IMG/VR virus record: IMGVR_UViG_3300046495_000010
Location: 1 to 39,653 of that record
Direction: 5' to 3' (one strand)
DNA from: a virus
Taxonomy: Duplodnaviria; Caudoviricetes
DNA: 39,653 nucleotides
Shown here: positions 21,051 through 39,653 of the stretch, one piece after another
Layout of the letters: every line of letters starts with the position of its first letter
How positions within the stretch are numbered: position 1 is the stretch's first letter
Notes under the pieces: generated by a model
What the model saw: only the letters and a program-made list of their open reading frames with translations
Told to the model about the DNA's origin: nothing
The model's database searches: none
Translations under genes and position numbers: made by a program

Positions 21051-21060
21051 GATCACTGCG

Positions 21061-22827: not shown

Positions 22828-22844
22828 GTGTTAACGAGGTGTGC

Positions 22845-22895
22845 TTGACAGTTTACCGGGTATCGGAGTAGCGCGTACCGGGTGAGCGTGCGCTA
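22845..22895 (+). promoter_or_regulatory. Possible promoter/operator
   Basis: TTGACA at 22845-22850 followed by TACCGGGT twice and a GTAGCGC/GCGCTAC stem; no good -10. Confidence 0.3.
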
Positions 22896-22945
22896 CGCTT
22901 GATCTGCAAGGCGTACGCCCACCTTTGGAGGCAGGTGAGATCCTG

Positions 22946-23173
22946 ATGGCTACCGAGATTGAGGCTGCCCACCGGGTAGTCGCCGATCGTGTCGACGAGA
23001 TCGTGGTCGAGGCGATGGATGGCACGGTGGAGGCTCACCGTGTGGAGAACATCACCAACGCCAAGGCCCGGAGTATGCCGTGGGCTCGGGTGACCAAGGC
23101 GTATGCGGCGTTGCGGGGTATGGAGCAGTGCCCGGCGTGTACGGGGCTTGGGATGGTCCCGCCTCGGCACTGA
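22946..23173 (+). CDS. Hypothetical protein with CxxCxGxG motif
   Basis: AGGTGA RBS; CPACTGLG. Confidence 0.65.
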   Translation: MATEIEAAHRVVADRVDEIVVEAMDGTVEAHRVENITNAKARSMPWARVTKAYAALRGMEQCPACTGLGMVPPRH

Positions 23174-25735: not shown

Positions 25736-25753
25736 CCCACCGGCGGGCAAGAC

Positions 25754-25972: not shown

Positions 25973-26134
25973 GTGAGCCTGCCGTACGCCACCTACGGGC
26001 TGGTCGTGGACGGCGGGCGGGTCGTGGCTGCTCCCCCGATCGCGGCGTGGATGCTCGGGCGCACCGAGGTGCATGTGGCGGGCTGGCTGCGGGCTCGGGG
26101 CGCCACAGTCGTGCCCCTCGACCCCCCATTGTGA
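25973..26134 (+). CDS. Small hypothetical protein (start uncertain)
   Basis: WVSLPYATYGLVVDGGRVVAAPPIAAWMLG reads as real protein; in-frame TAG at 25937 limits the N-terminus. Confidence 0.55.
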   Translation: MSLPYATYGLVVDGGRVVAAPPIAAWMLGRTEVHVAGWLRARGATVVPLDPPL

Positions 26135-26182
26135 TACATTGGAGTTGTATACGAGGTAAGCAACCCCGACCACGAGAGGTGA
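26129..26182 (+). promoter_or_regulatory. Extended -10 promoter at the start of the small-ORF island
   Basis: GTGATACATT (26131-26140) matches the TGnTACA(C/A)T of the repeat family but lacks the palindrome; GAGAGGTGA RBS downstream. Confidence 0.5.
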
Positions 26183-26188
26183 CCCCCC

Positions 26189-26578: not shown

Positions 26579-26798
26579 CGCTGAGAAGTGGGCACGCCTG
26601 TCAGTTCCCGACAAGCCCCGGGAACGCATCAAGGTCGCCGTCAACCTCACCATCGACGTCGACAAACAGGCATGGATGGACACCTACGGCCCCAACGGGA
26701 GCCTGCGGCAGGACATCAAGGACTACGCCCTCGGCTGCGTCGCCCAGTCCGCAGGCATCGAGGAGTGCGACGGCACAGTCGAGGCGACCCTGCGATGA
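26571..26798 (+). CDS. Hypothetical protein
   Basis: Overlap-coupled ORF with high GC3. Confidence 0.7.
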   Translation: MADAEKWARLSVPDKPRERIKVAVNLTIDVDKQAWMDTYGPNGSLRQDIKDYALGCVAQSAGIEECDGTVEATLR

Positions 26799-27097: not shown

Positions 27098-27393
27098 CTG
27101 GAAAAGTGGCCCCACTGTCACTGACACGCAACCCGATCATGGTCAAAGAGCACCGGATCATCAAGGTCCCCGCCGAACTGATGCGCCCCGGCTACATCAT
27201 CCTTGAGGGCGTCGTCTACGGCGTACGACCCGTCAACCACGGGTTCATGCTGGACGTGGTCAACTCCACCGTGTTCGCCCGCGAAGGCGAGACCGTGCAG
27301 GTCTACGCCCAGATCGAACAGGACATGGCCAAGGCCATCGCCGAGACCATCGACGAGGACGCGGCGGCGTACAAGAGGAGCGTGAGGGCATGA
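27094..27393 (+). CDS. Hypothetical protein
   Basis: GAGGAGG RBS; ATGA overlaps. Confidence 0.7.
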   Translation: MTGKVAPLSLTRNPIMVKEHRIIKVPAELMRPGYIILEGVVYGVRPVNHGFMLDVVNSTVFAREGETVQVYAQIEQDMAKAIAETIDEDAAAYKRSVRA

Positions 27394-27818
27394 GCATGGG
27401 CGGTGCGGCGTTCGGGATCAAAGCCCCGATCTGCCCACGCTGCCTCGGGTACATCCCGGGCAACGAAAACCCCGGAGAGTACCCCGGCGCCACGTCCCGC
27501 CTCACACGCGGACGCGACGACGACCCAGTCGAAATCTGCTCCGAGTGCGGACGCGACGAGGCCATGGGCAACGGCATGGTCCCCCAGTCCGCGTGGCCCA
27601 TCAAGACCGCCACCTCCCCGTCGGCCAACGCCGTCATGCCAGTCGACAGCAAGCACCGGAACGCCGGGTACAACACCGAGGGTCAGTGGGCTGACCCTGA
27701 CGGCGCCGGGGCGCAGATACAGGCCGACCTGAACAACCAGTTGTCGACCGCCAGCGACCGGCTGGGCCGGATGCTGACCCAGCACAGTGAGTCCGACATC
27801 GACGGGAGGACCCCATGA
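27390..27818 (+). CDS. Zn-finger protein, paralog A2
   Basis: Same motif set as 26189-26578. Confidence 0.8.
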   Translation: MSMGGAAFGIKAPICPRCLGYIPGNENPGEYPGATSRLTRGRDDDPVEICSECGRDEAMGNGMVPQSAWPIKTATSPSANAVMPVDSKHRNAGYNTEGQWADPDGAGAQIQADLNNQLSTASDRLGRMLTQHSESDIDGRTP

Positions 27819-28063
27819 CCCAACCTGAGGTGCTCCGGCACGCCATCAACGTCGTCGCCCAGCAGGCCATCTACGCCGCCACCCGAGAGGACGTCGGGAC
27901 GGGCGTCGAGTGGGGCATGTACCCCGAGATCGGCGAGGACGACTGGAAACGCGTGCTACGTCAGATCGACCGGGCCACCCCCCCACCCACGCGCGGGGAG
28001 TACGACGCCGCCTACGAACTGCTCACCTCCCGCGCCGACCCGACAGCAGAGCCCAACCCATGA
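27815..28063 (+). CDS. Hypothetical protein
   Basis: GGAGG RBS; WGMYPEIGEDDW motif. Confidence 0.7.
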   Translation: MTQPEVLRHAINVVAQQAIYAATREDVGTGVEWGMYPEIGEDDWKRVLRQIDRATPPPTRGEYDAAYELLTSRADPTAEPNP

Positions 28064-28410
28064 GCACCGTCAAGATCCTGCGCGTCGACGTCGACGCCAC
28101 CACCGAGGTCCTACACGTGCAGAACAACCTCGACGGCCTCAAAGCCGCGATCGGCGGCGGCTGGCTAGAGCCCATCGCCGCCACCGACGGGCTGCGCGGG
28201 TGGACCGCCTACCTTGACGAGGAGGGCAAGATCAAGGGCATGGGCGTCAACGTGGCAGCCACCTACCTCGCCCGGTCCATGGGCTGGGCCAGCGCCGACG
28301 TCCTGTGCGGGCCGGTGATCTTCCTCGGCCCCGTCGACCACGAGGGCGACGAGACCGACGTGGCCAACATCGTCCTGACCGCAGCACGAGCCCAAGGGAT
28401 ACTGCCATGA
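28060..28410 (+). CDS. DUF3846-like protein
   Basis: L..L..AIGGGWLE...YLDEEGK..G..VN..AT...D.LCGPVIFLG..D.EG signature. Confidence 0.8.
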   Translation: MSTVKILRVDVDATTEVLHVQNNLDGLKAAIGGGWLEPIAATDGLRGWTAYLDEEGKIKGMGVNVAATYLARSMGWASADVLCGPVIFLGPVDHEGDETDVANIVLTAARAQGILP

Positions 28411-28619
28411 GCATCATCGACCCACGCAACGTGGTCCTGACCGAGACCATCAACTTCCGTCTCGACGCCGAGACCCGCGACGCGATCGACAAGTGGGCCG
28501 GGCAGGAGAACCGGAAACGCTCTGACATGGCCCGGGTCCTGATCGAGGAAGCCCTCGCCGCCAGAGCCAAACGCGCGATACGCCGCGTCCAGCACGATGG
28601 GGCGCCCGCTGAAACGTAG
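28407..28619 (+). CDS. Ribbon-helix-helix (CopG-like) DNA-binding protein
   Basis: TINFRLD.E...IDKWA..ENRKRSDMARVLIEEAL. Confidence 0.85.
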   Translation: MSIIDPRNVVLTETINFRLDAETRDAIDKWAGQENRKRSDMARVLIEEALAARAKRAIRRVQHDGAPAET

Positions 28620-28667
28620 ACTCCACCTCACGTGGGGGGTGAGCGACCCGCCGCCGGAGGAGGAGAC

Positions 28668-28814
28668 ATGGCTGGCGACGGGCTCAACCCCTGTCCTGAA
28701 TGTGCCCAAGGCAAGTGCGCGAACTGCATCGGGGAGACGTGGGACCCGCAGGCTGACGACGTCGTGGACGTGTGCCCGTGTGCGGAGGCAACACCTCACG
28801 AGGTGGCCCGGTGA
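28668..28814 (+). CDS. Small Cys-rich protein
   Basis: GGAGGAG RBS; CPECAQGKCANC...CPC. Confidence 0.7.
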   Translation: MAGDGLNPCPECAQGKCANCIGETWDPQADDVVDVCPCAEATPHEVAR

Positions 28815-29113
28815 ACCTGTTTCGCGGTAAGGACCACGACACGGCGCCGATGGCCTGCCCGGCGTGCTGGTACAGGGTCGACGCGGCGACCGGGATCACC
28901 AGCGACGAAGCCCCCGAGGACGGCAGCGTGTCCATCTGTCTGGCGTGCGGGGCGATAAGTGTCTACTGCAACGGGGCCAGCGCCCTGCGCCCGCCCACGG
29001 TCGAGGAACGCGGGGAGTTGATGGGCGACCCCGACATCCAGAAGGCTGTGCTGGGGGTCCTGAACGCCAAGGACCACTCCCCCGACTGGCCCAAGGGCGG
29101 CAGGCTTCGGTGA
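28811..29113 (+). CDS. Zn-ribbon protein
   Basis: CPAC...DAATG...PEDG.VSICLACG...LRPPT.EE. Confidence 0.7.
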   Translation: MNLFRGKDHDTAPMACPACWYRVDAATGITSDEAPEDGSVSICLACGAISVYCNGASALRPPTVEERGELMGDPDIQKAVLGVLNAKDHSPDWPKGGRLR

Positions 29114-29523
29114 GCCTGCGTCTGTGGCATGGTGGGGTTCCCGGTCTGGGAGTCGGGGACCTGATCGTGCCCGGCCATCAGCGCAAGCCGGTGGCCGGGT
29201 GCGCGTTCTGTGAGGCTCGCGCGGCGCAGGCTGCCGGTGGCCTGCCTCCGGCAGTGGACCCCCTGTCCCGGGTCCACGACCGGGTGTACCTGTCCGCAGA
29301 CCGGGAGTACGCCCGGCACTACGCGTCCCTGTACGGGTATGGCGACCTGTACCGGGTAGAGCCGCTCGGGGACGTACAGCGTTCGACTGAGGACTCCTTT
29401 GAGACCTACCTCGCCGCCCAAGCCCGGGTGCTCGCCGTGTACGCCCGGGCTGTGCTGCTCACGGCCTCCCAGCGCCGGGCGCTGGACCGGGCGTGGGCTG
29501 CCGCCGACGCGGCCCGCCGATGA
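29110..29523 (+). CDS. Arr-like ADP-ribosyltransferase-fold protein
   Basis: LWHGG...L.VGDLIVPG / RVYLSAD...A..YA / GDLYRVEPLG parallels Arr FYHGT..L..GDL..G / VYFT / IYIVEPTG. Confidence 0.7.
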   Translation: MSLRLWHGGVPGLGVGDLIVPGHQRKPVAGCAFCEARAAQAAGGLPPAVDPLSRVHDRVYLSADREYARHYASLYGYGDLYRVEPLGDVQRSTEDSFETYLAAQARVLAVYARAVLLTASQRRALDRAWAAADAARR

Positions 29524-29963
29524 GCCTTGATGACGTCGCGTTCTACGCGCTGCTGGCCGGGTTCTGCGTGGCCACATGGCGCAAGGACCAACGCTGGCGT
29601 GACGGGTGGTGGTGCGCCTTCGGGATACTGCTCATCGTCATCACCCGGTTCCTGTTCGACCCGCACTACTCCGACGGCATCGGGCAGCGGCTCCTGTCCC
29701 TGACCGGCGGCCTGTTGTGGCTGGGCATCGTCATCGCCCGCTACCCCCGCTCAGGAATCCCCTGCTGGCATTACGGGCACGTCTGGGCGACGACCGTGGT
29801 CACTGCGGGCGGGCACGCGATCTTCTCCACCGAAAACGCCGACCCTGAGACCGAACGGCAACTCGCAGCCCGGTTCGCTGACGTCCCGCACGCGCAGGTC
29901 AGCAGCCAGTGCGCGGTGTGCAGGCGGCCACGACCTGACGGCGAGCCTCCCCCGGGGTCCTGA
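29520..29963 (+). CDS. Three-TM membrane protein with C-terminal C...GH.W...CxxC
   Basis: ATGA overlap; three hydrophobic segments. Confidence 0.7.
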   Translation: MSLDDVAFYALLAGFCVATWRKDQRWRDGWWCAFGILLIVITRFLFDPHYSDGIGQRLLSLTGGLLWLGIVIARYPRSGIPCWHYGHVWATTVVTAGGHAIFSTENADPETERQLAARFADVPHAQVSSQCAVCRRPRPDGEPPPGS

Positions 29964-29985
29964 GTGCCCGTAGCAGGCTGGGCCA

Positions 29986-30255
29986 GTGGAGCCCCTGTGG
30001 TGCGTATGCGCCGATCAGATGGACCTATTCGCGGAGGACCTGATGGAGCCAGCCCATACCCCGACACACTGCACCGGGACCACGACGGTCAACGGGGTCG
30101 AGGTCGAGTTCGACTACGTGGGGTGTTCGGTGTGCCGTATCGACCATCCCATCATCGGTCCCGGGATCGCTCAGCCGTGGGAGCGGGCGCACCCGGTGCC
30201 GCTGCCGTCGACGGCCACACAGACCGTTCCCGACGGCAGGGAGATGCGTCTCTAG
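29986..30255 (+). CDS. Cys-rich hypothetical protein (start uncertain)
   Basis: WCVC...HC...CSVC. Confidence 0.55.
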   Translation: MEPLWCVCADQMDLFAEDLMEPAHTPTHCTGTTTVNGVEVEFDYVGCSVCRIDHPIIGPGIAQPWERAHPVPLPSTATQTVPDGREMRL

Positions 30256-30274: not shown

Positions 30275-30306
30275 TTCTGGTGTCAACACGGAGTTGACAC
30301 CCAGAA
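30275..30306. repeat. Inverted repeat with TGTCAAC-N5-GTTGACA core
   Basis: TTCTGGTGTCAAC / GTTGACACCCAGAA (one bulge), directly upstream of cassette repeat 1. Confidence 0.75.
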
Positions 30307-30307
30307 G

Positions 30308-30352
30308 GTGCTTACCGAGTTAGCAAATGTGTTACACTTGAAGTGGAGGGGA
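30308..30352 (+). promoter_or_regulatory. Cassette repeat 1 (palindrome plus extended -10)
   Basis: GTGCTTACCGAGTTAGCAAATGTGTTACACTTGAAGTGGAGGGGA. Confidence 0.85.
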
Positions 30353-30397
30353 TGGGGTAGCCACCCGAGATCCCCCCGGCAAGTGGAGGTGACAGAC

Positions 30398-30577
30398 ATG
30401 AGGCTCTACGAGTTCGACGCAGTCCTCGGTCTGCGACGCGTCCTGCCCCCTGTGTTCCAGCAGGGCGGATGGGGCCGCGCAGTCGTGGAGCCACCGGCCA
30501 AACCAGCGGTGGTCGTTCAGTTCCCCAAGGGTCCGGTGTTCACGCCCCGGCCAGCGTTCGTCGCAAGGGGGCTGTGA
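30398..30577 (+). CDS. Hypothetical protein
   Basis: GGAGGTGA RBS before ATG 30398. Confidence 0.65.
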   Translation: MRLYEFDAVLGLRRVLPPVFQQGGWGRAVVEPPAKPAVVVQFPKGPVFTPRPAFVARGL

Positions 30578-30873
30578 TGTGCGACCACGAAGGCCGAGAG
30601 TGCCCGGGGCGTTCCTGCGAGTGCGTGTGCATGAACTGCCTGCCGTACGACGAGAACGGCAACTGGGTCAGTTCCGTCAACTTCACCTTCCCGCTGCGTA
30701 ACGGACGACACCGCACCACGCAGGCCGAGAACCGCAGGACCGGCGAGATGCTCGGCTCCTACGACTACGAGCACAAAGAGGGATGGACCTCTGACGGCGC
30801 CAACTTCACCGGCCCCGGCGCAGAGTTCGCGTGGGTCGCAGCCGTGAACAAACTAGCCAAGGGAGGCAAGTGA
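30577..30873 (+). CDS. Hypothetical protein with Cys-rich N-terminus
   Basis: TGATG coupling; CDH...C...CECVCMNC. Confidence 0.65.
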   Translation: MCDHEGRECPGRSCECVCMNCLPYDENGNWVSSVNFTFPLRNGRHRTTQAENRRTGEMLGSYDYEHKEGWTSDGANFTGPGAEFAWVAAVNKLAKGGK

Positions 30874-31301
30874 TGGCCGTGTGGCGTGAAGTGACCGACC
30901 CCGAGCAGATCCGCGCCAGCGAGGCACGGCGAGTGGCCGCAAGGGGCGGGGTCAAACTCAGCCCCCGCGATCGGCTCGCCATGTACCGCACCGGCCACCT
31001 GTACGGGATCAAGGCCGAGGACCTGTCCGACGAGATCCCGCTGACACCCGGGACACTGGTCGTGCTCACCAAGAGTTCAGGGGCCGAGGGTCAGCCCGGC
31101 ACGATCGTGGAGGTCGAGGGCGACGAGGGCGACCCGTGCTTGGTCGCCGTGGAGTACCTCGTGGCGTTCGGTAGCAACGGGCCTCTCGTGGGCCATCCTC
31201 CCCTCTGGTTCCGCGACAAGGACGTCAAGGCCCAGCCTGCCAGTTCGCCCGGTGAGCGTGAGGACCCCCCGGGCTCTACCCTGACGGGAGTGCAGACATG
31301 A
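30873..31301 (+). CDS. Hypothetical protein with SH3-like C-terminal half
   Basis: TGATG coupling; PGTLVVL...GQPGTIVEV...VAVEY...WF...DV. Confidence 0.65.
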   Translation: MAVWREVTDPEQIRASEARRVAARGGVKLSPRDRLAMYRTGHLYGIKAEDLSDEIPLTPGTLVVLTKSSGAEGQPGTIVEVEGDEGDPCLVAVEYLVAFGSNGPLVGHPPLWFRDKDVKAQPASSPGEREDPPGSTLTGVQT

Positions 31302-31540
31302 TCGCCCCCGAGGAAATCAGGGCCATGGTGACTCGCAGGGACTACAACGCCATCGCGGCGACGTTCGCCGATGAGATCGCACTGCTGGATCTGCTGCCGA
31401 ACGCGGACGCTGAGCGGGGCGTGGTGTGGCGTCTGGCCCGGCGGCTGGCGCTGGTGCTCAAGGCTGACAACCCGAAGTTCGATACGGCCCGGTTCTTGAA
31501 GGCGTGCGGGTTGCCCAAGGCGTTCGTGCCCGGCGAGTAA
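31298..31540 (+). CDS. Small phage protein with DNPxFDxxRFLxAC motif
   Basis: TRRDY.AIA...LA..L..DNPKFD..RFLKACG, a motif recurrent in phage early regions. Confidence 0.75.
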   Translation: MIAPEEIRAMVTRRDYNAIAATFADEIALLDLLPNADAERGVVWRLARRLALVLKADNPKFDTARFLKACGLPKAFVPGE

Positions 31541-31542
31541 AG

Positions 31543-31593
31543 GTGTAAACCCGGTTAGCAACCGTGGTACACTTGAAGTAGCGAGAGAGGTGA
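31543..31593 (+). promoter_or_regulatory. Cassette repeat 2
   Basis: GTGTAAACCCGGTTAGCAACCGTGGTACACTTGAAGTAGCGAGAGAGGTGA. Confidence 0.9.
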
Positions 31594-31598
31594 GAGAC

Positions 31599-31868
31599 AT
31601 GGCGATGACCAAGGCCCAGATCCGGGCATGGCTGCTCGACTACGCATGGCTCGACGAGCCCGAAGCGGCCAAAGCCGCCAACGTCGACTGCATCATGGCC
31701 CAAGAGGACTACGAGTTCGTCGACGTCGTGGCCGACCAGTTCGCCGGAGCACAGGAAACCGGCGGCGGCCCGGCAGAGTTCGCCGCAGGCATGGAGTTCG
31801 CCCTGAGCGCCCTCTACGAGTGCCACGAAGGGCCACACCTGCCCACCTGCCCACGGAACGAGGAGTAG
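31599..31868 (+). CDS. Acidic hypothetical protein
   Basis: RBS supplied by repeat 2; ends CHEGPHLPTCP. Confidence 0.7.
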   Translation: MAMTKAQIRAWLLDYAWLDEPEAAKAANVDCIMAQEDYEFVDVVADQFAGAQETGGGPAEFAAGMEFALSALYECHEGPHLPTCPRNEE

Positions 31869-31870
31869 CG

Positions 31871-32257
31871 ATGACGCGCGAGGCGTACGACCCAAACGGG
31901 CTCCGCAGAGTACCCCCAGTGGCCGAGGCCCTTGAGGAGGCGTACGACGCGCTGGACGTCGCGCACATAGCCGCCAACCGCGACCTACGCCCCGAACAGC
32001 GCCAAGCCCTGAACGCCGCCCTCGCTGCCGCACGGGCAGCGTTGGAGGTCCCGCTGCTGCCCGGGGACGAGGAGCACAAGAGGTGCATCAGCGAGTTCGG
32101 CCCCCACCAGTTCCACGGGCAGCAGCCGGAAAGCGGCTACCGCAACTGCGACGAACTGATCGACGCCATGGGCCAAGGCCCAGAGGACCCGGACGCGCCG
32201 GACCCCGACTACGGCACACCCCACTACCCGAAGCCCGACATCTGGGAGGGACCATGA
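31871..32257 (+). CDS. Hypothetical protein
   Basis: GAGGAG RBS; ATGA overlap with the next gene. Confidence 0.65.
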   Translation: MTREAYDPNGLRRVPPVAEALEEAYDALDVAHIAANRDLRPEQRQALNAALAAARAALEVPLLPGDEEHKRCISEFGPHQFHGQQPESGYRNCDELIDAMGQGPEDPDAPDPDYGTPHYPKPDIWEGP

Positions 32258-32535
32258 CCACGTTCAACCTGAGTATCGACATGGACAACGCCGCGTTCGA
32301 CGGTGACGCGGTGACCGAGGTTCAGCGCATCCTGCGGGATCTCATCACGAACAGGCTGCCCCTGTTCCCACAACGGGGCGGCGGTCGTCTAGGCCGGAGC
32401 GTCGGCCCCCTGCATGACATCAACGGCAACACCGTCGGCACGTGGGAGGTCGTCGACGACGAGCCCGACGAGGCTGAGGAGCGCGAGATCCGCGAGCACC
32501 TCGGCTACGAACTGCCGAGAGAGGAAACGGTATGA
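32254..32535 (+). CDS. Small phage protein with NAAF...DxNGNxVG motif
   Basis: F.L.I..DNAAF...EV.RILR...DINGNTVG.W, a recurrent phage early-region family. Confidence 0.75.
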   Translation: MTTFNLSIDMDNAAFDGDAVTEVQRILRDLITNRLPLFPQRGGGRLGRSVGPLHDINGNTVGTWEVVDDEPDEAEEREIREHLGYELPREETV

Positions 32536-32690
32536 GCGTCGACGATCTGGCTCAGCCGAGCCCGGCTGAGGATCTGGACTACGTGGCGTGGATGGACGCA
32601 CAGGACCACGTCCTGCCGTGCGGGTGCATGGCGTCGGCCCCGGAGCATCACTGCGAGGACCCGGTCCCTGACGACGACGGTGCCCCGTGA
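32532..32690 (+). CDS. 52-aa acidic Cys/His peptide
   Basis: ATGA/GTGA overlaps; LPCGC...HHC. Confidence 0.6.
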   Translation: MSVDDLAQPSPAEDLDYVAWMDAQDHVLPCGCMASAPEHHCEDPVPDDDGAP

Positions 32691-32773
32691 ACTGGGCGCT
32701 GGCGATCTCGCTGGTCAGCCTCGGGTTCGTGATCGGGATGCTGACCGCTGACCTGATGGCGCGGCGGCGATGA
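32687..32773 (+). CDS. 28-aa single-TM peptide
   Basis: VNWALAISLVSLGFVIGMLTADLMARRR; coupled at both ends. Confidence 0.55.
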   Translation: MNWALAISLVSLGFVIGMLTADLMARRR

Positions 32774-33051
32774 GGCCCCCGACCCAGTCCAACGCCATGG
32801 TCACCGTGAGTTTCGGGTTCACCTGCGGCTGCACCCAGCGGCCCAGCGCGCCCGTGCGGGCGATCGAGGCGTACTCGCTGCCCGGGGCCGTCATCATCTG
32901 CGAGCGCCATCAGGAGTACGCGGTGTGCAACCGGGTCACCACCCGGCTGGTCCACGACCCGGAGGTGCTGCGGCGGCTGCTGGCTGAGGCGGGCGTCGAC
33001 GAGGACGACACGTGGACGGTGCCGCTGACCCCTGACGGATTCCCCGATTGA
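32770..33051 (+). CDS. Hypothetical Zn-binding protein
   Basis: FTCGC...ICERH. Confidence 0.65.
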   Translation: MRPPTQSNAMVTVSFGFTCGCTQRPSAPVRAIEAYSLPGAVIICERHQEYAVCNRVTTRLVHDPEVLRRLLAEAGVDEDDTWTVPLTPDGFPD

Positions 33052-33106
33052 GTGCTAACCCGGTAACCAAACGTGTTACACTTGAGGTGGAGGGGGAGAG
33101 AGGGTG
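33052..33106 (+). promoter_or_regulatory. Cassette repeat 3
   Basis: GTGCTAACCCGGTAACCAAACGTGTTACACTTGAGGTGGAGGGGGAGAGAGGGTG. Confidence 0.9.
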
Positions 33107-33229
33107 ATGGAGATGACCGCACTGATGCTGGCACTGGTGCTGGCGCTGGCTGGTTACGCTGCCGGGCGAGTCGAGCAGCGACAGGTCGCCTACGCGTGGG
33201 CGCAGGCACGAGGAGAGGAACAGCGATGA
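33107..33229 (+). CDS. 40-aa membrane-anchored peptide
   Basis: MEMTALMLALVLALAGYAAGR...; RBS supplied by repeat 3. Confidence 0.6.
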   Translation: MEMTALMLALVLALAGYAAGRVEQRQVAYAWAQARGEEQR

Positions 33230-33636
33230 CCGAGGTGTTCACACTGCCCAAGCCGGAGTTCAAGACACCCGGCCTCGACTACAACGGCAAGCCCGCCCGA
33301 ACCCGCAAGGTCCACTACCCCGTGGGTCCGGTCACCAAGACCGACAAGGGCACCGAGCAGCGTGTCGTGCAGGTCTGGGTCGGGCACACCACCGACCGCA
33401 AAGAGTTCTACGCCCGAGCCAACCGGGTCGTCGTCGCCAACGAGGCGCCGTTCTGGGCGGTCGAGAGGTCCATGCTGTTCAACGGTGTCACCCTGATGCG
33501 CCAGCCGGTGGCCCGGTACAGCGTCAAGGCGCTGGAAGCGTTCACCGCCAAGGTGGTCGAACTGTTTGAGGCGCAGGTCGCCGTGACTCCCGTCCTGCGG
33601 GCGATGTTCAACGAGGACGAGGGCGAGTGGGCATGA
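33226..33636 (+). CDS. Hypothetical protein
   Basis: GAGGA RBS; C-terminal VARYS.KAL motif. Confidence 0.7.
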   Translation: MTEVFTLPKPEFKTPGLDYNGKPARTRKVHYPVGPVTKTDKGTEQRVVQVWVGHTTDRKEFYARANRVVVANEAPFWAVERSMLFNGVTLMRQPVARYSVKALEAFTAKVVELFEAQVAVTPVLRAMFNEDEGEWA

Positions 33637-33839
33637 GCCTGATTGAGGAGCGCAACGCGTGGCGGTGGATCGACTGGTCCGTGAAGGACCATGTCGACGA
33701 GGCTGAGCGGCTCGCCCGCCAGTATGCGGAGGAAGCGCACACGGCAGAGGTCCGGGCGGAGTTGCTCGCGCTGGTCCAGATCCACGCGACGCTGGCCCAG
33801 ACCAAGGCCCAACTACGCCAGACCGAGAGGGGCTACTGA
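33633..33839 (+). CDS. Helical small protein, paralog B1
   Basis: HVDEAERL...ELLALVQIHATLAQTKA. Confidence 0.75.
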   Translation: MSLIEERNAWRWIDWSVKDHVDEAERLARQYAEEAHTAEVRAELLALVQIHATLAQTKAQLRQTERGY

Positions 33840-34045
33840 TGAGCGATCGAGTTGAGGTCGCCGCGCTGCCGATGTGCGACGTGCACACGTACCTCAAGGG
33901 CAAGGACGACGTCCCAGCCGCCTACGACGGCAAGACCACGTCCGGCCCGTGGGCCAACATGTGTCAGGAGTGCTTTGACGAACTGGGCGTCGGGCTCGGG
34001 ACAGGACTCGGCCAGCGGTTGGTCGTGCGGGGAGAGGGAGCATGA
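33839..34045 (+). CDS. Small Cys-containing phage protein
   Basis: CD...YDGKT..GPWANMC..CF...G.GLGTGLGQ, a recurrent phage family. Confidence 0.8.
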   Translation: MSDRVEVAALPMCDVHTYLKGKDDVPAAYDGKTTSGPWANMCQECFDELGVGLGTGLGQRLVVRGEGA

Positions 34046-34239
34046 GCACGTACAAGATCATCCGGTTCCATCAGGACGGCCCCGACGAGACGGTCACCCA
34101 TGGGCTGACGTTGGAGGCGGCGCAGGCGCACTGCCGACGTGAGGACACCCATGGGGAGGGCTGGTTCGACGGCTATGAGGAGGAGCCCCCGGCTGGGGCG
34201 CCTCTTGATGGGCAGAACCGCTCTGGTGCCCTTGAGTGA
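34042..34239 (+). CDS. Small phage protein
   Basis: YKIIRF...GLTLEAAQAHC...WFDGY motif. Confidence 0.8.
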   Translation: MSTYKIIRFHQDGPDETVTHGLTLEAAQAHCRREDTHGEGWFDGYEEEPPAGAPLDGQNRSGALE

Positions 34240-34243
34240 CCGG

Positions 34244-34294
34244 GTGCTAACCACGTTAGCGAACGTGGTACACTTGAAGTAGAGGGAGAGGTGA
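34244..34294 (+). promoter_or_regulatory. Cassette repeat 4
   Basis: GTGCTAACCACGTTAGCGAACGTGGTACACTTGAAGTAGAGGGAGAGGTGA. Confidence 0.9.
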
Positions 34295-34299
34295 GCAAG

Positions 34300-34635
34300 A
34301 TGACAACCACCACCGAGTTCCGTGAGTGCGACACCGCCGAACTGCTCGCACAGATCGGTCGCATGAACATCTTTTCGATCAGCGGCGGGCGCGTGGAGCG
34401 CCGCGAGACCGGCGTGACCTTGCCGGTCGGGTCCGGGTACTCCGTGACCGTCGACCTGAACTGGGACGACACCTACGTCGTTCGCAGGATGTTCAAGCGC
34501 GGCGCCAAGGTCTGGGTCAAGGGCGAGGCCACCAACGTCTACGCCGAGGAAGTCGGCGAGACCGCCTACCGCGCGTCGTGTTTCCGCAACGGCCCGTGGG
34601 GCGACGGCGTCGACGGCTACTGGACAGGGAAGTGA
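34300..34635 (+). CDS. Hypothetical actinophage protein
   Basis: QIG..N...ISGGRV...GV.LPV..GY.V.V.L..DDTY.V.R. Confidence 0.75.
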   Translation: MTTTTEFRECDTAELLAQIGRMNIFSISGGRVERRETGVTLPVGSGYSVTVDLNWDDTYVVRRMFKRGAKVWVKGEATNVYAEEVGETAYRASCFRNGPWGDGVDGYWTGK

Positions 34636-34637
34636 GC

Positions 34638-35189
34638 ATGAGCGCACTGAACGTGGCTGAGGTCGTCAAAGAGAGTCTGTGGCACCTTGACGCCGAACTG
34701 GAAAAAGAGGGCTGGGACGCCCCGCCCCGGCTGCTGATGATGCTGCCCACGACCGTGGAGGACGTCGGGCTGGCGATCCAGATAAAGCCCCTGACCGGCT
34801 GGGACGTGGTCGTCCCCATGGCCAACAGCGCCCAGCGGGCGCTGGGCGCGATGGTCCACGTCTACGCCGAGATGCCCACCGAACTGCTGCGCGGCGGCAT
34901 CCCCGAAAACCTGTTCGCGCTCGCGTTCGTGTCTGAGTCGTGGATGCTGAAGGTCGACTACAAGGACGAGGGAGCCGCCGCGTCGGCGCTGAAGGCCGGG
35001 CGGGAGCACAAGATCAACGAGGACCCGCGCAGGGTCGAGGCCCGGGTGATCTACCTGCAACCGGTCGGCGGGCCGAGCGCGATGCTCATGCACGAGCGCG
35101 ACGGTGTGGTGGAGTTGCAGGAGGGCGACACCGCCGGTGGTGAGATCCCCCGGTTGCTGGCAGAGTTGGTCACAGCCCTGACACGCTAA
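34638..35189 (+). CDS. Hypothetical protein
   Basis: GWDAPPRL...SESWM...DPRRVEAR; its stop TAA lies inside repeat 5. Confidence 0.7.
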   Translation: MSALNVAEVVKESLWHLDAELEKEGWDAPPRLLMMLPTTVEDVGLAIQIKPLTGWDVVVPMANSAQRALGAMVHVYAEMPTELLRGGIPENLFALAFVSESWMLKVDYKDEGAAASALKAGREHKINEDPRRVEARVIYLQPVGGPSAMLMHERDGVVELQEGDTAGGEIPRLLAELVTALTR

Positions 35190-35231
35190 CCGGGTTAACA
35201 CAAGGTGCTACAATAGAGGTAGAGGGCAGGG
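35183..35231 (+). promoter_or_regulatory. Cassette repeat 5
   Basis: ACGCTAACCGGGTTAACACAAGGTGCTACAATAGAGGTAGAGGGCAGG. Confidence 0.85.
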
Positions 35232-35261
35232 GCAAGCGACCCGGCCCGGGAGGGAAACAGA

Positions 35262-35783
35262 ATGTACGTGCTCATCTTCCACAACGTCACCACACTGGCT
35301 GATCTCGCCGCACGCGGTGACGAGCACGCCGCGCAGGACATCGCCCGCGACAAGACCAACGCCAAGGCGCTGGCGATCTTCCGCCGGATGCCACACGGCA
35401 ACGACGACAAGGCACCCATCGAGCCCGGCGACAAGTTGGCCTACGTCGGCGACTTCGGCATCGAAGACCTCGACGCCACCGCGCTGGACGCCGCCAACGC
35501 CGCCTTCGCGGCAGGCAACGCACCCGGCGGCCCGAACGTCGACCTCTACCGCTCATGGCAGGTCCGCTCGCTGAGCGTCGGTGACGTCGTGATCGCCTAC
35601 CCGACCAACGGTGACAAGCCTGTCGCGTACGCGGTCGCAGGCTGCGGCTGGCAGCCCCTCGACGCCGATCTGGACGCCTACGAGGTCGACGTGAGCCGGG
35701 CGGATCTGCGTAACCCCGGGCCGTGGCAGAAGTGGGTCAAGCGCCCCGCCGACCACGTCTCCAACCAGTCAGAGGTCTGGTGA
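35262..35783 (+). CDS. YodL-like domain protein
   Basis: AF...N...RSLSVGDVV......AYAV...GW signature. Confidence 0.7.
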   Translation: MYVLIFHNVTTLADLAARGDEHAAQDIARDKTNAKALAIFRRMPHGNDDKAPIEPGDKLAYVGDFGIEDLDATALDAANAAFAAGNAPGGPNVDLYRSWQVRSLSVGDVVIAYPTNGDKPVAYAVAGCGWQPLDADLDAYEVDVSRADLRNPGPWQKWVKRPADHVSNQSEVW

Positions 35784-35959
35784 GCCGCCCCGGGCACGAC
35801 GCCCAGTGCGAGTGGGGCCAGAGATGCCCCATCGACATGGGCGGACTGCCCCCCGAGTACGCCGTCCGTGAGGACTGCAAGTGCGCCGTGCGCGCCTACC
35901 AGCGCGACCCCCTGCCCGGGGTCGAGGAGCCCCCCGACGCTCAGGAGGACCCATGGTGA
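35780..35959 (+). CDS. Small Cys-rich protein
   Basis: GTGA overlap; HDAQCEW...C...CKC. Confidence 0.6.
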   Translation: MSRPGHDAQCEWGQRCPIDMGGLPPEYAVREDCKCAVRAYQRDPLPGVEEPPDAQEDPW

Positions 35960-36375
35960 TGTTTGAGGCCACCATCCCCCAGTCGCTCGTGTTCTCGTTC
36001 GCCGGGCAGGCAGGCCAGTACCCGCAGTACGGGATGCCCGGGATCTCCTACTTCAAGGGTGTGATCTCTGCCAAGGTCTGGGTCAACTGCCTGCTGTTCC
36101 GCGATGAGCACGGCATCCTGCTCGGGGTCCTGAACCACTACCCGATGACCTCGGTGTGGGAGGAAGCGGGCAACGTCAACGTGTTCATCGACCCAGCCCA
36201 CAAACGCAAGGGCATCGGGACGGCGCTGGTCGCCGAGTGCATCGCCCGGTGGGGGCAGATCAACACCGCCCAGCAGCGGTTCACCCCAGAGGGCGCAGCG
36301 TGGGCTGAGAGGCTCGTGCTGGATGGACAGAACCGGGCCGACGGGTTCGGCGATTCACTGTCAAGACCGAGTTGA
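35953..36375 (+). CDS. GNAT-family acetyltransferase
   Basis: AGGAGG RBS; motif A VFIDPAHKRKGIGTALV. Confidence 0.85.
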   Translation: MVMFEATIPQSLVFSFAGQAGQYPQYGMPGISYFKGVISAKVWVNCLLFRDEHGILLGVLNHYPMTSVWEEAGNVNVFIDPAHKRKGIGTALVAECIARWGQINTAQQRFTPEGAAWAERLVLDGQNRADGFGDSLSRPS

Positions 36376-36395
36376 CGATAAAGGGAGAGCGTGTG

Positions 36396-36605
36396 ATGCC
36401 AGAGAAGAAATGGTCCCGCTGGACCATGAACCAGCACATCGACGAGGCCCAGCGCATCGTCGAGGGAGCCGTCCAGACCCCGCCGGGCACCTACGTCGAA
36501 CTGCTCGCGCTGGCTCAGGTCCACGCGACGATCGCACAGGCCAAGGCCGTCGACATGCTCGACACGACGGTGACCCGCCTCGCCGATCTCAAGGAGGGGC
36601 CATGA
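36396..36605 (+). CDS. Helical small protein, paralog B2
   Basis: HIDEAQRI...ELLALAQVHATIAQAKA. Confidence 0.75.
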   Translation: MPEKKWSRWTMNQHIDEAQRIVEGAVQTPPGTYVELLALAQVHATIAQAKAVDMLDTTVTRLADLKEGP

Positions 36606-36832
36606 GCCAAGAGCGGCTGATGATCGCCTGCGCCGACGGGGAGCACACCCGCTGCGACGGGTCAGGACGTGACTCGACCGTCGGGTGCTCGTGTCGCTGC
36701 CACCGCCGAAAGGCGGGACATGTCCACCAGTGGGCGCCTCTGCTGGGTGCCAGCAGGGGCCAACTGTGGCCTCAGCACTGTACCGATGGCGGCTGCACCG
36801 CGAAGTTGATCGACCACGAGGTGGTGTGGTGA
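36602..36832 (+). CDS. Cys/His-rich protein
   Basis: AAGGAGG RBS; C..GEH..C...CSCRCH...H.HQW...C...C. Confidence 0.7.
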   Translation: MSQERLMIACADGEHTRCDGSGRDSTVGCSCRCHRRKAGHVHQWAPLLGASRGQLWPQHCTDGGCTAKLIDHEVVW

Positions 36833-37260
36833 TGGAAAACCAGTGCTTTAGCGCCGGACGGCTCGCGGCAGAGGCGCAGGAGGTGGCGGCGCGACCGGGG
36901 TACGTCTCGTGCCCTACGTGTGGGCGTGACGTCCATGTCAACAAGGACGGGACTTTGCACATCCACTCAGGCTATGGCTATCGGCGGACCACACCGGAGT
37001 TCGTGATGATCCCCGGCAGCCTGTCCGTGGAGGCGGACGGGCTCGGCCCACGGCAGCCCCGTCAGCCGCCACCCAAGGGCATCTTGGCCACGGACATGCG
37101 GACCCTGATCGACAGCCTTGAGGTGATCGTGCAGGAGGCGACCTCCTACGGGACGTTGACGACCTGCACGGTGGAGGCTGACGTGACCGGCTCCACGGTG
37201 GTCGCTGTCTACGCCGAGGGTGACTGGTGGTTGAGGTGGAGCCCATGGACGTCATCCTGA
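36832..37260 (+). CDS. Hypothetical protein with Zn ribbon
   Basis: TGATG coupling; C...CPTCGR.V.V..DG.L..H. Confidence 0.65.
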   Translation: MENQCFSAGRLAAEAQEVAARPGYVSCPTCGRDVHVNKDGTLHIHSGYGYRRTTPEFVMIPGSLSVEADGLGPRQPRQPPPKGILATDMRTLIDSLEVIVQEATSYGTLTTCTVEADVTGSTVVAVYAEGDWWLRWSPWTSS

Positions 37261-37619
37261 ACCCGGGCGCCGGGGACGTCCCAGACGCGACGCTGGACCA
37301 CGCGATCGAGAACTGTCAGTGGTTCGCCGCCGACGTGATCGCCGCCCATGGGTACAGGGATGCGACGTGGGTGGCCAAGGACCCGCTCGGTCAAAACAGT
37401 GAGCAGCCGCGCGGCGGGCGGTGGGAGTTCGTGCTGACCTGTGAGCCGGATACGCCGGGGGCGCCGTTGGAGCAGTGGGTGCTGGACATGCCGGGGGTGC
37501 CGTTGGGGCGGGTCCGTTATCTCGGTGAGGAGGGCCAAAACCCGTTCGACTTCGTCCGGCTGTACGTGGATGGGTCGTCGTGGTTGTGGAAGTTCGCTGT
37601 CAACGTCTGCGGCCCCTGA
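37245..37619 (+). CDS. Hypothetical phage protein
   Basis: ILNPG...GRW.F...MPG.PL..VRY.....QNPFDF.RLYVDGSSWLW.FA. Confidence 0.75.
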   Translation: MDVILNPGAGDVPDATLDHAIENCQWFAADVIAAHGYRDATWVAKDPLGQNSEQPRGGRWEFVLTCEPDTPGAPLEQWVLDMPGVPLGRVRYLGEEGQNPFDFVRLYVDGSSWLWKFAVNVCGP

Positions 37620-37621
37620 GC

Positions 37622-37676
37622 CTGCTAACCGGGTTGGCAAATGTGCTACACTAGAAGTGGGGAGAGAGAGAGGTGA
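37622..37676 (+). promoter_or_regulatory. Cassette repeat 6
   Basis: CTGCTAACCGGGTTGGCAAATGTGCTACACTAGAAGTGGGGAGAGAGAGAGGTGA. Confidence 0.9.
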
Positions 37677-37766
37677 TGCGGAGTGAGAGGGCGCGGGCGC
37701 CCGACTGAGGCCCGCACGCAAGAGCCCGCCCCGGGTATGAGCCGGGACGGTAGGAAGGAGGGCGTG

Positions 37767-37949
37767 ATGACCAAGTACGTTGTCGCGCTGACTGCGGAGA
37801 CCGGGTGGGAAGCCTACCTGACCACGCAGGAGTACGAGGTCGAGGCACAGAACGCCGAGGCCGCAGAGGTTGCCGCAAGGCAACAGGCGCGCGAGAGGTA
37901 CGCCTACGAGCACGCCAACAACGGAACCGCGCAGGTTCGGGAGGTCTGA
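37767..37949 (+). CDS. Small protein with VEA..AE.A motif
   Basis: AAGGAGG RBS; KY.V...YEVEAQNAEAAE..A. Confidence 0.7.
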   Translation: MTKYVVALTAETGWEAYLTTQEYEVEAQNAEAAEVAARQQARERYAYEHANNGTAQVREV

Positions 37950-38332
37950 TGTTCACCGTCCAGATCGTGGAGGTCGACGGCTCCCCGCTGCACGCCGTGA
38001 CCGGGAAGTTGGCCCCGGAGTACGAGGGGCTGCCCGAGCCGTTCAAGGTTGCCCTGTACGAACTGATGGACAACCCCGAGGACAGCGTGTGCGCCAACTG
38101 CAACAAGCCCGTCGGGTTCGTCCTCGGAGGCGAGGACCCGACCTACGGGGAGTCGCTGGTCTGGCGCTGGGCCACGCTGGTGCGTGAGGCACCCGCCGAC
38201 CGTGAGGTGCTGGACCTGCTGGGCAAACTGACGGTGATGTTCACCGCGCCCCCGGTCGAGGTGCTCTGTGAGGACTGCTCCCTGAACTGGGTGCCGAGCG
38301 CGGGCATCGACCCCGAGAGTCAACCCGGTTAA
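37949..38332 (+). CDS. Zn-binding hypothetical protein
   Basis: TGATG coupling; CANC...LCEDC; its stop TAA lies inside repeat 7. Confidence 0.7.
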   Translation: MFTVQIVEVDGSPLHAVTGKLAPEYEGLPEPFKVALYELMDNPEDSVCANCNKPVGFVLGGEDPTYGESLVWRWATLVREAPADREVLDLLGKLTVMFTAPPVEVLCEDCSLNWVPSAGIDPESQPG

Positions 38333-38371
38333 CGAACCGTGATACAATTCTGGTAGCGCGAGAGGGAGGAA
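38317..38371 (+). promoter_or_regulatory. Cassette repeat 7
   Basis: GAGTCAACCCGGTTAACGAACCGTGATACAATTCTGGTAGCGCGAGAGGGAGGA. Confidence 0.8.
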
Positions 38372-38373
38372 CC

Positions 38374-38625
38374 ATGAGCCGTGACCGCATCTGCTACTGG
38401 CTAGACGAGACCCTGACCGACAAGGCAGGCCACTACGTGCCGGGGCTGGTCGTCGAGAACGAGTCCGGGTACTACGAGCAGACCAAGGTCGTGCTCGCCA
38501 CAGACTTCGCCACCGCCAAGGCCACGGTCGAGGCCCTCAACGCCGACATGGGCGTCACTCCCGAGGACGCCCGAGACATCGTCGCCTCCTCCATGTTCAA
38601 GGACGGCATCATCGACCATGAGTAA
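38374..38625 (+). CDS. Small phage protein
   Basis: Y.P.LVVENESGY...A......LN..MG.TPE.A..IVASSM. Confidence 0.75.
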   Translation: MSRDRICYWLDETLTDKAGHYVPGLVVENESGYYEQTKVVLATDFATAKATVEALNADMGVTPEDARDIVASSMFKDGIIDHE

Positions 38626-38872
38626 GGCTGAGGAGTTGGCCGCCAAGATGCTCACCGAGGCCCCTGTGCGCTGGAAGGCCAAGGTCCGGGCCTGTCCATC
38701 CTGCGGACGCACAGTGCTGACCACCGAACGCCTGATCCCCGGAGGCGGCTCCCAGACCACGTTCGTGGCCCACTCCCGGGTCGAGCCCACCGGCTGGTCC
38801 GCCCGCACGCTGGCACTGCCGGTAGCCACCCCCTACCAGACATGCGAGCAGTCAGGCAAGGACGTGCCATGA
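38618..38872 (+). CDS. Zn-ribbon hypothetical protein
   Basis: CPSCGR...H...C..SG. Confidence 0.65.
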   Translation: MSKAEELAAKMLTEAPVRWKAKVRACPSCGRTVLTTERLIPGGGSQTTFVAHSRVEPTGWSARTLALPVATPYQTCEQSGKDVP

Positions 38873-39147
38873 GCACCGTCATCATCTTCCAAGGCTTGGC
38901 CGGGACCCTCTGGGACGGCGAAGCGCCAACCCCCGGGCAGTACCTACGCGAGTACGACCACGAGTACGCCGGAGGGCTCGGCTGGGCCGACTGGACCTCG
39001 GACCCCACCAAGGCCCTGACGTTCGACTCCCCGGCTGAGGCGCTGCGCGTGTGGCGCTCCCAGTCGCGGACCCGGCCCGTCCGGGTCGACGGTCAGCCCA
39101 ACCGGCCCCTGACCGCCTACACCGTAGAGATCGGTGAGATCCCATGA
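38869..39147 (+). CDS. Hypothetical phage protein
   Basis: YL..YD.E..GG.G...WT.DP.KA..F...W..QS..RP.R.DG.PNRPLTAYTV. Confidence 0.75.
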   Translation: MSTVIIFQGLAGTLWDGEAPTPGQYLREYDHEYAGGLGWADWTSDPTKALTFDSPAEALRVWRSQSRTRPVRVDGQPNRPLTAYTVEIGEIP

Positions 39148-39653
39148 GAGCCGCACAGGTCCTCGACTACCAGAAGTCGCTACGGGACGGGCTGCGGACC
39201 GGGTTCTACCGCACCTACCTTGACGGGTTCCTGAAGTCCGTCACCATCAAGTCCGGCAGCGTCACCAACCGCCGCGACGCTGAACACCTCGGCGACGCGT
39301 GGGCCGACACCGAGATCGCCACCTTGGAGATCGCCTGCGCGTTCCACGTCGACCGTGAGATGGCGCCGCTGATCCGCCACGCCGCCGCCGGGCTGGACGA
39401 GGACTTCACGTGGTCCAAAGAGGTGTTCCCCACCGATCGCGGATTTATGATGTTCGACGAGCCGCTGACCCTGCGCGAGGTACGCCAGCGCACCATGCGG
39501 ACCGCCGCCGTGGTCTGGCGCTGGGGGAGCGGACCCTACGGGCAGGCCGGGGTCTGGCTCTCGATGTACTCCAAGTGGGACGACGCGCTGGACGAGGTCG
39601 CCGTGGAGATCCGCGAGCGCCTCGGGGACAGCCGGTGCCAGAGCCTCGGGCCG
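39144..39653 (+). CDS. Hypothetical protein (3' truncated)
   Basis: ATGA overlap; frame stays open to the window end (MRAAQVLDYQ...PTDRGFMMFDEPL...). Confidence 0.7.
   Translation, partial: MRAAQVLDYQKSLRDGLRTGFYRTYLDGFLKSVTIKSGSVTNRRDAEHLGDAWADTEIATLEIACAFHVDREMAPLIRHAAAGLDEDFTWSKEVFPTDRGFMMFDEPLTLREVRQRTMRTAAVVWRWGSGPYGQAGVWLSMYSKWDDALDEVAVEIRERLGDSRCQSLGP

What the first reader, a model, noticed from the sequence alone, without database searches (positions are those of the whole stretch)
30308..38371. Array of gene cassettes delimited by a repeated palindrome-promoter-RBS element
Seen: seven copies (30308, 31543, 33052, 34244, 35183, 37622, 38317) with consensus GTGCTAACCnGGTTAGC-n4/5-GTGnTACACTTGAAGTRGAGGGAGAG. 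The 15-bp dyad GCTAACC-N-GGTTAGC ends 8-9 bp upstream of a TACA(C/A)T hexamer preceded by TGn. Each copy heads a run of 2-7 translationally coupled small ORFs. Established: TGnTAnnnT is the extended -10 of primary sigma factors. Comparable repeated elements exist in other phages (SAS/ESAS of Cluster K mycobacteriophages, PeSL elements of T4-type phages). Inference: the dyad occupies the -35 position, so one dimeric regulator could switch all cassettes together. This would be a host-takeover or anti-defence regulon. I do not recognise this motif as described.
Basis: partly seen in the sequence, partly recalled or inferred. Interest (0 to 1): 0.85.

Follow-up and report, generated by a model that had tools for sequence, protein, structure and literature searches.

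The report
Repeated operator-promoter units in peat actinophage
An uncultured high-GC phage places near-identical copies of one 47-base DNA element in front of seven groups of small unknown genes; it is likely a host-type early promoter overlapped by a binding site for one phage repressor, a new version of a design already described in mycobacteriophages.

Summary
The seven copies are real (8 dyad matches vs 0.67 expected; held-out copies score 25-62 bits vs below 0 elsewhere). Each heads 2-7 coupled small ORFs. Contigs of the same or a sister phage add five more copies. Anatomy: dyad G(C/T)T(A/T)AC-N3-GT(T/A)A(G/A)C at about -35..-21, then 7-9 bp, extended -10 GTGnTAYAMT, purine-rich +1 region; no TTGACA-like -35. 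The dyad shows no pairing covariation. It also occurs alone: at +1..+15 of another extended -10 promoter (26147), and as three tandem sites (22830-22887), enriched in intergenic DNA. The binder is unidentified; an Arc/CopG-like gene (28407) is the best candidate. No anti-defence function was shown. The closest published case is the Cluster K ESAS (seven 46-47 bp promoter plus inverted-repeat units, PMC11373665), with unrelated sequence. Earlier notes of this scan report the same design in other actinophages. Side finding: a small HTH family sits beside GTCAA-N7-TTGAC in 24 of 28 loci, and this phage carries that second site too. New variant of a known kind.

The parts
30308..30354 (+). Element copy 1: dyad 30310-30324, extended -10 with hexamer at 30333, predicted +1 near 30345; 53-nt leader shared in part with two copies outside the window
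30398..31540 (+). Cassette 1: four small ORFs (30398, 30577, 30873, 31298), unknown function
31543..31589 (+). Element copy 2: dyad 31545-31559, -10 at 31568
31599..33051 (+). Cassette 2: six small ORFs, unknown function
33052..33098 (+). Element copy 3: dyad 33054-33068, -10 at 33077
33107..34239 (+). Cassette 3: five small ORFs; 33839 has relatives in Streptomyces, Arthrobacter and Gordonia phages
34244..34290 (+). Element copy 4: dyad 34246-34260 (both arms perfect), -10 at 34269
34300..35189 (+). Cassette 4: two ORFs; 34300 has a relative in prophi79-1
35183..35230 (+). Element copy 5: dyad 35185-35199 overlapping the upstream stop codon, 9-bp spacer, -10 at 35209
35262..37619 (+). Cassette 5: seven ORFs including a GNAT acetyltransferase-like gene (35956-36375)
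37622..37668 (+). Element copy 6: dyad 37624-37638, -10 at 37647; 108-nt leader
37767..38332 (+). Cassette 6: two ORFs
38317..38364 (+). Element copy 7: dyad 38319-38333 inside the end of the upstream ORF, 9-bp spacer, -10 at 38343
38374..39653 (+). Cassette 7: four ORFs in the window, continuing beyond its end; 38374 has relatives in Cluster M mycobacteriophages
26131..26161 (+). Separate extended -10 (GTGATACATT, 26131-26140) with a dyad-only site at predicted +1..+15 (26147-26161, 17.1 bits), heading the coupled run 26189-28619
22830..22899 (+). Three weak dyad sites in tandem (22830, 22851, 22873; 9.8, 6.3, 11.5 bits; 21-22 bp apart) followed by TACGCT at 22894, upstream of gene 22946
22946..23173 (+). 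75-aa lineage-restricted protein with a CxxCxGxG tail; second candidate regulator or target; fold not resolved
28407..28619 (+). 70-aa ribbon-helix-helix, Arc/CopG-like protein, last gene of the run that starts behind the 26147 site; best candidate binder (inferred)
   Evidence: Pfam RHH_5 E 4.8e-5, below cut-off; PHROG Arc-like repressor E 9.5e-7
30282..30298 (.). Second dyad type GTCAA-N7-TTGAC, 11 bp upstream of the first array dyad; also at 20594 and 36360

Best explanation
Each copy is likely a strong early promoter for the host's housekeeping RNA polymerase (extended -10, no -35 box), overlapped at about -35 to -21 by a twofold-symmetric site that likely binds one phage-encoded repressor, which would shut all cassettes off together later in infection or in a dormant state. 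Shown: the repeat, its geometry, its place at cassette heads, symmetric conservation without pairing covariation, and dyad-only sites elsewhere. Inferred: transcription from these sites, early timing, repression rather than activation, and the Arc/CopG-like protein 28407 as binder (about 0.3 for that gene, since only about half of a roughly 100-kb genome was seen). The copies likely spread by duplication or recombination and may anchor exchange of cassettes between strains.
For: GTGnTA(C/T)A(C/A)T is present in 11 of 12 copies and TGnTATACT in the twelfth; G-16 T-15 G-14 is the actinobacterial extended -10, which lowers the need for an activator (PMC6212719 abstract, sigma-B enzyme). No copy has more than 3 of 6 matches to TTGACA at 16-19 bp spacing. 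G1, A5 and C6 are invariant in 24 of 24 half-sites, and variation is symmetric. Pairing and covariation do not exceed shuffles (242 and 170 of 500), so it is a protein site, not a hairpin. Dyad-only hits in 15 intergenic stretches outside the array: 3 at 9 bits or more vs 0.08 in shuffles, 6 at 4 bits or more vs 0.57. The best one lies at +1..+15 of the best extended -10 outside the array, where an activator would not work. Three sites lie two helical turns apart at 22830-22887. Precedent: CopG represses an extended -10 promoter through a 13-bp element over the -35 box, with boxes 9 bp centre to centre like the half-sites here (PMC2724298 passages); the 28407 gene lies in the run headed by the +1 site. 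Strain data: homology resumes at 30306 in one run, and further copies appear with other flanks.
Against: No start site, binding or timing was observed. RNA-library contigs fall on and off the array, and two span copy 5, so they neither show nor rank transcription. The left arm sits 16, 17 or 18 bp from the -10 (1, 7 and 4 of 12 copies), exactly the tolerance of a -35 contact, which fits an activator equally; recent duplication could also explain it. Apart from 26147, the dyad-only sites are weak, and the intergenic set was drawn after the hits were seen. A whole-region Markov null gave less: 4 hits at 8 bits or more vs 1.0, maximum 4. The RHH assignment is below Pfam's cut-off, and nothing links it to this site except position. 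No integrase or cI-like gene was seen in the sequence available, so a dormant state is not shown. No copy-to-copy deletion joint was listed in four DNA runs (2 joints not shown).
Confidence: 0.6

Rival explanations
1. The dyad is an activator site that replaces the -35 box: a phage dimer binds it and recruits or remodels host sigma region 4, making these middle promoters (as T4 MotA or mycobacterial PafBC do; both recalled, not checked in a call).
For: No -35 box in 12 of 12 copies; the left arm is held at 16-18 bp from the -10.
Against: The -10 region is near optimal; a strong dyad lies at +1..+15 of the 26131 promoter, which has no dyad at -35; tandem sites at 22830-22887. The recalled PafBC motif does not match by eye.
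Confidence: 0.2
2. PeSL-like unit: the dyad acts as an RNA stem-loop that ends the upstream transcript, and the repeat mainly serves as a recombination anchor, with no protein binder.
For: The dyad starts within -14 to +6 bp of the upstream stop in six of seven copies. Homology between strains resumes at copy 1, and cassette 7 is far more diverged from L002 (88 differences in 1337 bp) than 33504-37948 (3 in 4445 bp).
Against: The stem is only 6 bp with a mismatch in 11 of 12 copies, has no covariation and no T tract; the terminator scan finds nothing at the copies. Divergence from L002 starts about 300 bp before copy 7. No copy-to-copy joints.
Confidence: 0.1
3. The dyad is bound by a host transcription factor that couples the cassettes to host state.
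For: No cognate regulator is proven in the phage sequence seen.
Against: The joint pattern gave 8 single hits in 185,579 genomes, none actinobacterial and none repeated. Recalled host boxes (LexA, CIRCE, IdeR, ClgR) differ in spacing or arm order. The dyad alone was not scanned in host genomes, and the host is unknown.
Confidence: 0.07

Closest known systems
ESAS plus SAS of Cluster K mycobacteriophages (PMC3203893; Adephagia re-reading in PMC11373665)
   Same: Seven intergenic 46-47 bp units holding a SigA-type promoter and an imperfect inverted repeat, in front of non-structural genes, next to a conserved ribosome-binding region; regulator unknown, repression proposed.
   Different: ESAS arms are 15-17 bp, contain TTGACA and span the whole promoter. 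Here the dyad is 6-3-6, there is no TTGACA, the -10 is extended and lies outside the dyad, and the SAS 13-mer is absent from the array. Sequences are unrelated: best dyad score in the Adephagia stretch is 8.9 bits.
PeSL cassettes of T4-type phages (PMC2839356, PMC4122927)
   Same: Repeated composite early-promoter units that bound small ORFan cassettes and can anchor exchange.
   Different: PeSLs have consensus -35 and -10 boxes and a terminator stem-loop of varying position; here the dyad has fixed sequence and register and no hairpin signature.
CopG/Pcr of plasmid pMV158 and Arc of phage P22 (PMC2724298)
   Same: An extended -10 promoter with a short symmetric element over the -35 region, two boxes 9 bp apart, bound by ribbon-helix-helix dimers that block polymerase.
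   Different: One autoregulated promoter with a true -35 box, not a genome-wide array; the binder here is only a candidate.
Cluster O 17-bp dyad (PMC4351075), Cluster M conserved repeats (PMC7953290), Arthrobacter phage Tank dyads
   Same: Short repeats before small right-arm genes of actinophages; some cassette genes are shared.
   Different: Different sequences. Cluster O sites are mostly not near promoters, and the Bongo and Tank repeats printed are not tied to an extended -10.

Membership tests
Cluster K ESAS/SAS | Multi-copy intergenic unit of promoter plus inverted repeat before non-structural genes | tested here: met
   7 copies in the window, 12 in all; no full copy found in the tail or head regions scanned
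Cluster K ESAS/SAS | 15-17 bp arms containing the -35 TTGACA, of ESAS consensus | tested here: not met
   6-bp arms, at most 3 of 6 to TTGACA; Adephagia units printed are unrelated
Cluster K ESAS/SAS | 13-bp SAS next to the start codon | tested here: not met
   With up to 2 mismatches only 2 hits, both in the tail region, none in the array
PeSL | Consensus -35 and -10 boxes | tested here: not met
PeSL | Stem-loop acting as terminator or attenuator | tested here: not met
   No covariation; no terminator-like site at the copies
PeSL | Recombination between copies (indels, mini-circles) | tested here: inconclusive
   No copy-to-copy joints in 4 DNA runs held as contigs; homology edges at or near copies 1 and 7
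Sigma-A extended -10 promoter | TGnTAnnnT | tested here: met
   12 of 12 copies
Sigma-A extended -10 promoter | Transcription starts 6-8 nt after the hexamer | tested here: inconclusive
   RNA runs are held only as contigs and cannot show starts
Repressor-operator regulon (Arc/CopG or lambdoid type) | Dyad overlapping polymerase contact sites, also at other promoter positions | tested here: met
   -35..-21 in the array; +1..+15 at 26147; tandem at 22830-22887
Repressor-operator regulon (Arc/CopG or lambdoid type) | Cognate protein binds and lowers transcription | not testable with these tools
   Candidate RHH gene 28407 only
Known structured RNA family | Rfam match | tested here: not met
   0 matches at E up to 1 in window, L003 and L004; leader z-scores -0.2 to -1.6

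The most novel reading that the evidence does not exclude
The dyad is a phage-specific replacement of the -35 box: one phage dimer activates a dozen or more extended -10 promoters from the -35 register and represses from +1, an actinophage middle-promoter system of the sigma-appropriation type. A second HTH/GTCAA-N7-TTGAC circuit, borrowed from actinobacterial mobile elements, is wired onto the first cassette.
Probability: 0.2. Interest if true: 0.65.

Novelty: new variant of a known kind. Interest (0 to 1): 0.36.

Why it matters
How actinophages time their many small early genes is mostly unknown; even for Cluster K ESAS the regulator is unidentified (PMC11373665). This array gives twelve natural variants of one compact promoter-operator, dyad-only sites and named candidate binders, so the repress-or-activate question can be tested with reporters in any actinobacterial host. 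The design itself is not surprising, and the genes it controls remain without function. The side finding, a predicted HTH-operator pair spread over actinobacterial mobile elements, could give a small portable switch.

Tried and rejected
Motif scans of viral contigs: strict patterns gave 0. Looser ones gave 67, 5 and 2 single hits without the dyad-plus-array context. Genome contigs gave 8 single hits in non-actinobacterial records. blastn of 30300-38200 against 50,697 phage records matched only one small gene in 5 Arthrobacter phage records. Relatives by major tail protein: 0 of 5 records searched carry GTGNTANAMT; three are fragments, and one (L083) came from the HTH search. The HTH gene in L004 was first taken as the binder, then set aside because its family tracks a different dyad. 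Two folds of protein 22946 were low confidence (pLDDT 59 and 50), so no fold search was run; Atlas searches of 22946 and 26571 named nothing. RNA runs were uninformative on starts. A hairpin or terminator reading was rejected. Paper searches; none showed this motif, but the library lacks most subscription papers, including the original Cluster M and phiC31 repeat papers, which I did not see.
Full report
Context. The window is a fragment of a 67% GC tailed phage: tail genes, CHAP endolysin, RecT and exonuclease, HNH genes, small terminase, then many small ORFs, all on the + strand. A second record is 98% identical over 11 kb and is estimated 28% complete at 30 kb, and a relative with an 85% identical major tail protein lies on a 98.7-kb contig, so the genome is about 100 kb and only about half was seen. 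Gene relatives are in actinophages. The stretch is held by 15 of 24 listed runs at half its words or more, labelled peat or permafrost metagenome, two of which may be its source. The host is unknown.

Observation. Seven copies are confirmed. The dyad with up to 3 mismatches gives 8 matches against 0.67 expected. Each held-out copy scores 25-62 bits while the best other site is below 0. Pairwise identity among copies is 0.60 over the 25 bp before the hexamer, 0.92 in it, 0.68 just after, and 0.26-0.27 in the flanks. The cassettes hold 4, 6, 5, 2, 7, 2 and at least 4 ORFs. One metagenome scan returned 3 loci: L002 is the same phage, L003 overlaps the window's end and adds two copies, and L004 adds three. 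L004 does not overlap the window, so its assignment to this phage rests on the shared element and leader, and on homologues of its HTH and of the window's tail protein both listing a 98,747-bp longest contig. Loose ends in a DNA run show further copies with other flanks.

Anatomy. Across 12 copies: dyad, then 7, 8 or 9 bp (1, 7 and 4 copies), then TA(C/T)A(C/A)T preceded by TGn in all and GTGn in eleven, then TGAAGTRG and a purine run. With the hexamer at -12, the dyad covers about -35 to -21 and its left arm fills the -35 register. No TTGACA-like hexamer is present (at most 3 of 6). In 24 half-sites G1, A5 and C6 are invariant; GCTAAC occurs 11 times. Pairing is 86% against 85% in shuffles and covariation is not above shuffles; there is no T tract or terminator call. 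This fits a site for a symmetric protein. Leaders are 18-19 nt in four copies and 41-108 nt in three. Three of twelve copies share a leader that can fold, but z-scores are weak and Rfam finds nothing.

Repressor or activator. The symmetric dyad profile finds sites outside the array: 26147 (17.1 bits), 22873 (11.5), 22830 (9.8), 14314 (8.1, in a gene), 17181 (7.4), 22851 and 21872 (6.3). In 15 intergenic stretches (1959 bp, chosen from my gene list after the hits were seen) there are 3 hits at 9 bits or more against 0.08 in shuffles. A Markov null over 1-30200 is less decisive at low scores (4 vs 1.0 at 8 bits; 1 vs 0.03 at 14 bits). Site 26147 lies at +1..+15 of the best extended -10 outside the array, a repressor position by established knowledge. 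That promoter heads a coupled run ending in an Arc/CopG-like gene at 28407. CopG represses an extended -10 promoter through two 4-bp boxes 5 bp apart over the -35 region (PMC2724298, passages; PMC3413123, passages), the same 9-bp centre spacing as here. The extended -10 makes RbpA dispensable for initiation by the M. tuberculosis sigma-B enzyme (PMC6212719, abstract and headings only). Against this, the 16-18 bp register is what a -35-replacing activator would need, and nothing shows binding. In 12.6 kb of head region from the second record there is no full element and one 12.6-bit dyad-only hit. I put repression at 0.6 and activation at 0.2.

Expression and recombination. Four RNA-library runs, held as contigs, cover parts of the array and of 19700-30000 alike, and two contigs span copy 5; they cannot show starts or levels. 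Four DNA runs list no joint between copies. One shows homology resuming at 30306, two bases before copy 1. Against L002, 33504-37948 differs at 3 of 4445 bp, 37949-38316 at 7 of 368 and 38317-39653 at 88 of 1337. Cassette exchange near the element is plausible, not shown.

Cassette function. Of the 30 cassette ORFs among 80 proteins scanned, one passes a Pfam cut-off (GNAT, 35956); PHROG hits are of unknown function. PADLOC gives 0 of 28 (27 window ORFs plus the full-length L003 form of the last; two ORFs under 40 aa left out). Host takeover or anti-defence stays a guess.

Spread. No other genome with the joint motif was found in viral contigs, genome contigs or phage records.

Second dyad. 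The L004 HTH (PHROG 686, E 8e-12) has 118 relatives and 28 viral loci. An exact GTCAA-N7-TTGAC lies within 130 bp before the match in 24 of 28 loci against 0.31 at random positions. Eleven loci share one site sequence, leaving 13 distinct ones, and the window was chosen. This phage has exact sites at 20594, 30282, 36360 and twice in L003, but none before its own HTH gene, which sits behind an array copy. The HTH probably reads this second site, not the array dyad (inference).

Comparison. Adephagia has seven intergenic 46-47 bp units with a SigA-like promoter and a 15-bp inverted repeat, proposed to be repressed by an unknown regulator (PMC11373665, passages; PMC3203893, passages and section 15 part 1 of 2). 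Their sequence and layout differ. PeSLs have consensus boxes and terminator stems (PMC2839356 passages; PMC4122927 abstract). Cluster O and M repeats differ too (PMC4351075 passages and section 8; PMC7953290 passages). No supplements were read; ESAS figures were seen only as legends. T4 MotA, PafBC, phiC31 and host boxes are recalled, not checked. Earlier notes of this scan describe the same design in several other uncultured actinophages; they are unchecked and are not counted as support.

Verdict. Real. It works like a repeated promoter-operator unit of the ESAS kind but is not an ESAS or a PeSL by sequence or layout. New variant of a known kind; interest 0.36.

Noticed in passing
L004:783-1037 (-); window 20594, 30282, 36360; L003 1209, 5904; L075-L102: A small HTH family (PHROG 686) of actinobacterial phages and mobile elements has an exact GTCAA-N7-TTGAC just before or over its start in 24 of 28 loci (0.31 at random): a predicted autoregulatory operator. 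This phage carries the gene and five such sites.
   Followed up: partly
window 22830-23173: Three tandem weak dyads with a TTGACA between the first two, ahead of a 75-aa protein with only 7 close relatives and an invariant CxxCxGxG tail.
   Followed up: partly
window 30345-30397; L003 3038-3085; L004 1038-1089 (-): Three copies share a leader starting GGGGATGGGGTAGCCACCC that can fold into nested stems with a variable 3' bulge; fold scores are not significant.
   Followed up: partly
L003:4629-5288: 220-aa protein whose N-terminus resembles an Lsr2 dimerisation domain (recalled, no database hit) followed by zinc-finger-like motifs; possible counter-silencer.
   Followed up: no
window 20800-26000: Alternating strong GC skew (-0.14, +0.32, -0.20, +0.17 per kb) around a 194-aa possible winged-helix gene (21061), two HNH genes and the small terminase; may mark an origin or packaging region.
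   Followed up: no
window 23180-23310: Gene-free stretch with GTTAGTG three times and a T run.
   Followed up: no
window 26189-26578 and 27390-27818; 33633-33839 and 36396-36605: Two pairs of paralogous small genes (75-85% DNA identity over parts).
   Followed up: no
L074 (Arthrobacter phage Tank 52000-67592): The dyad GGGTCGG-GYRA-CCGACCC recurs before many small leftward genes of Tank.
   Followed up: no
L001 1-6800 versus window 1-940: A 98% identical record has a different set of long Gly/Ala-rich and beta-helix-like genes upstream of the head-tail adaptor, so this module varies between strains.
   Followed up: no
P0122, P0239: About 80% identical homologues of the tail protein and of gene 22946 are labelled as coming from a Rhodoglobus MAG; a weak host lead that may be mis-binning.
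   Followed up: no
window 14822-15418; L130:2457-3047 (-): A DXD glycosyltransferase-like gene next to the lysis genes, and a methyltransferase-looking gene near the head genes with a 12.6-bit dyad-only hit upstream.
   Followed up: no
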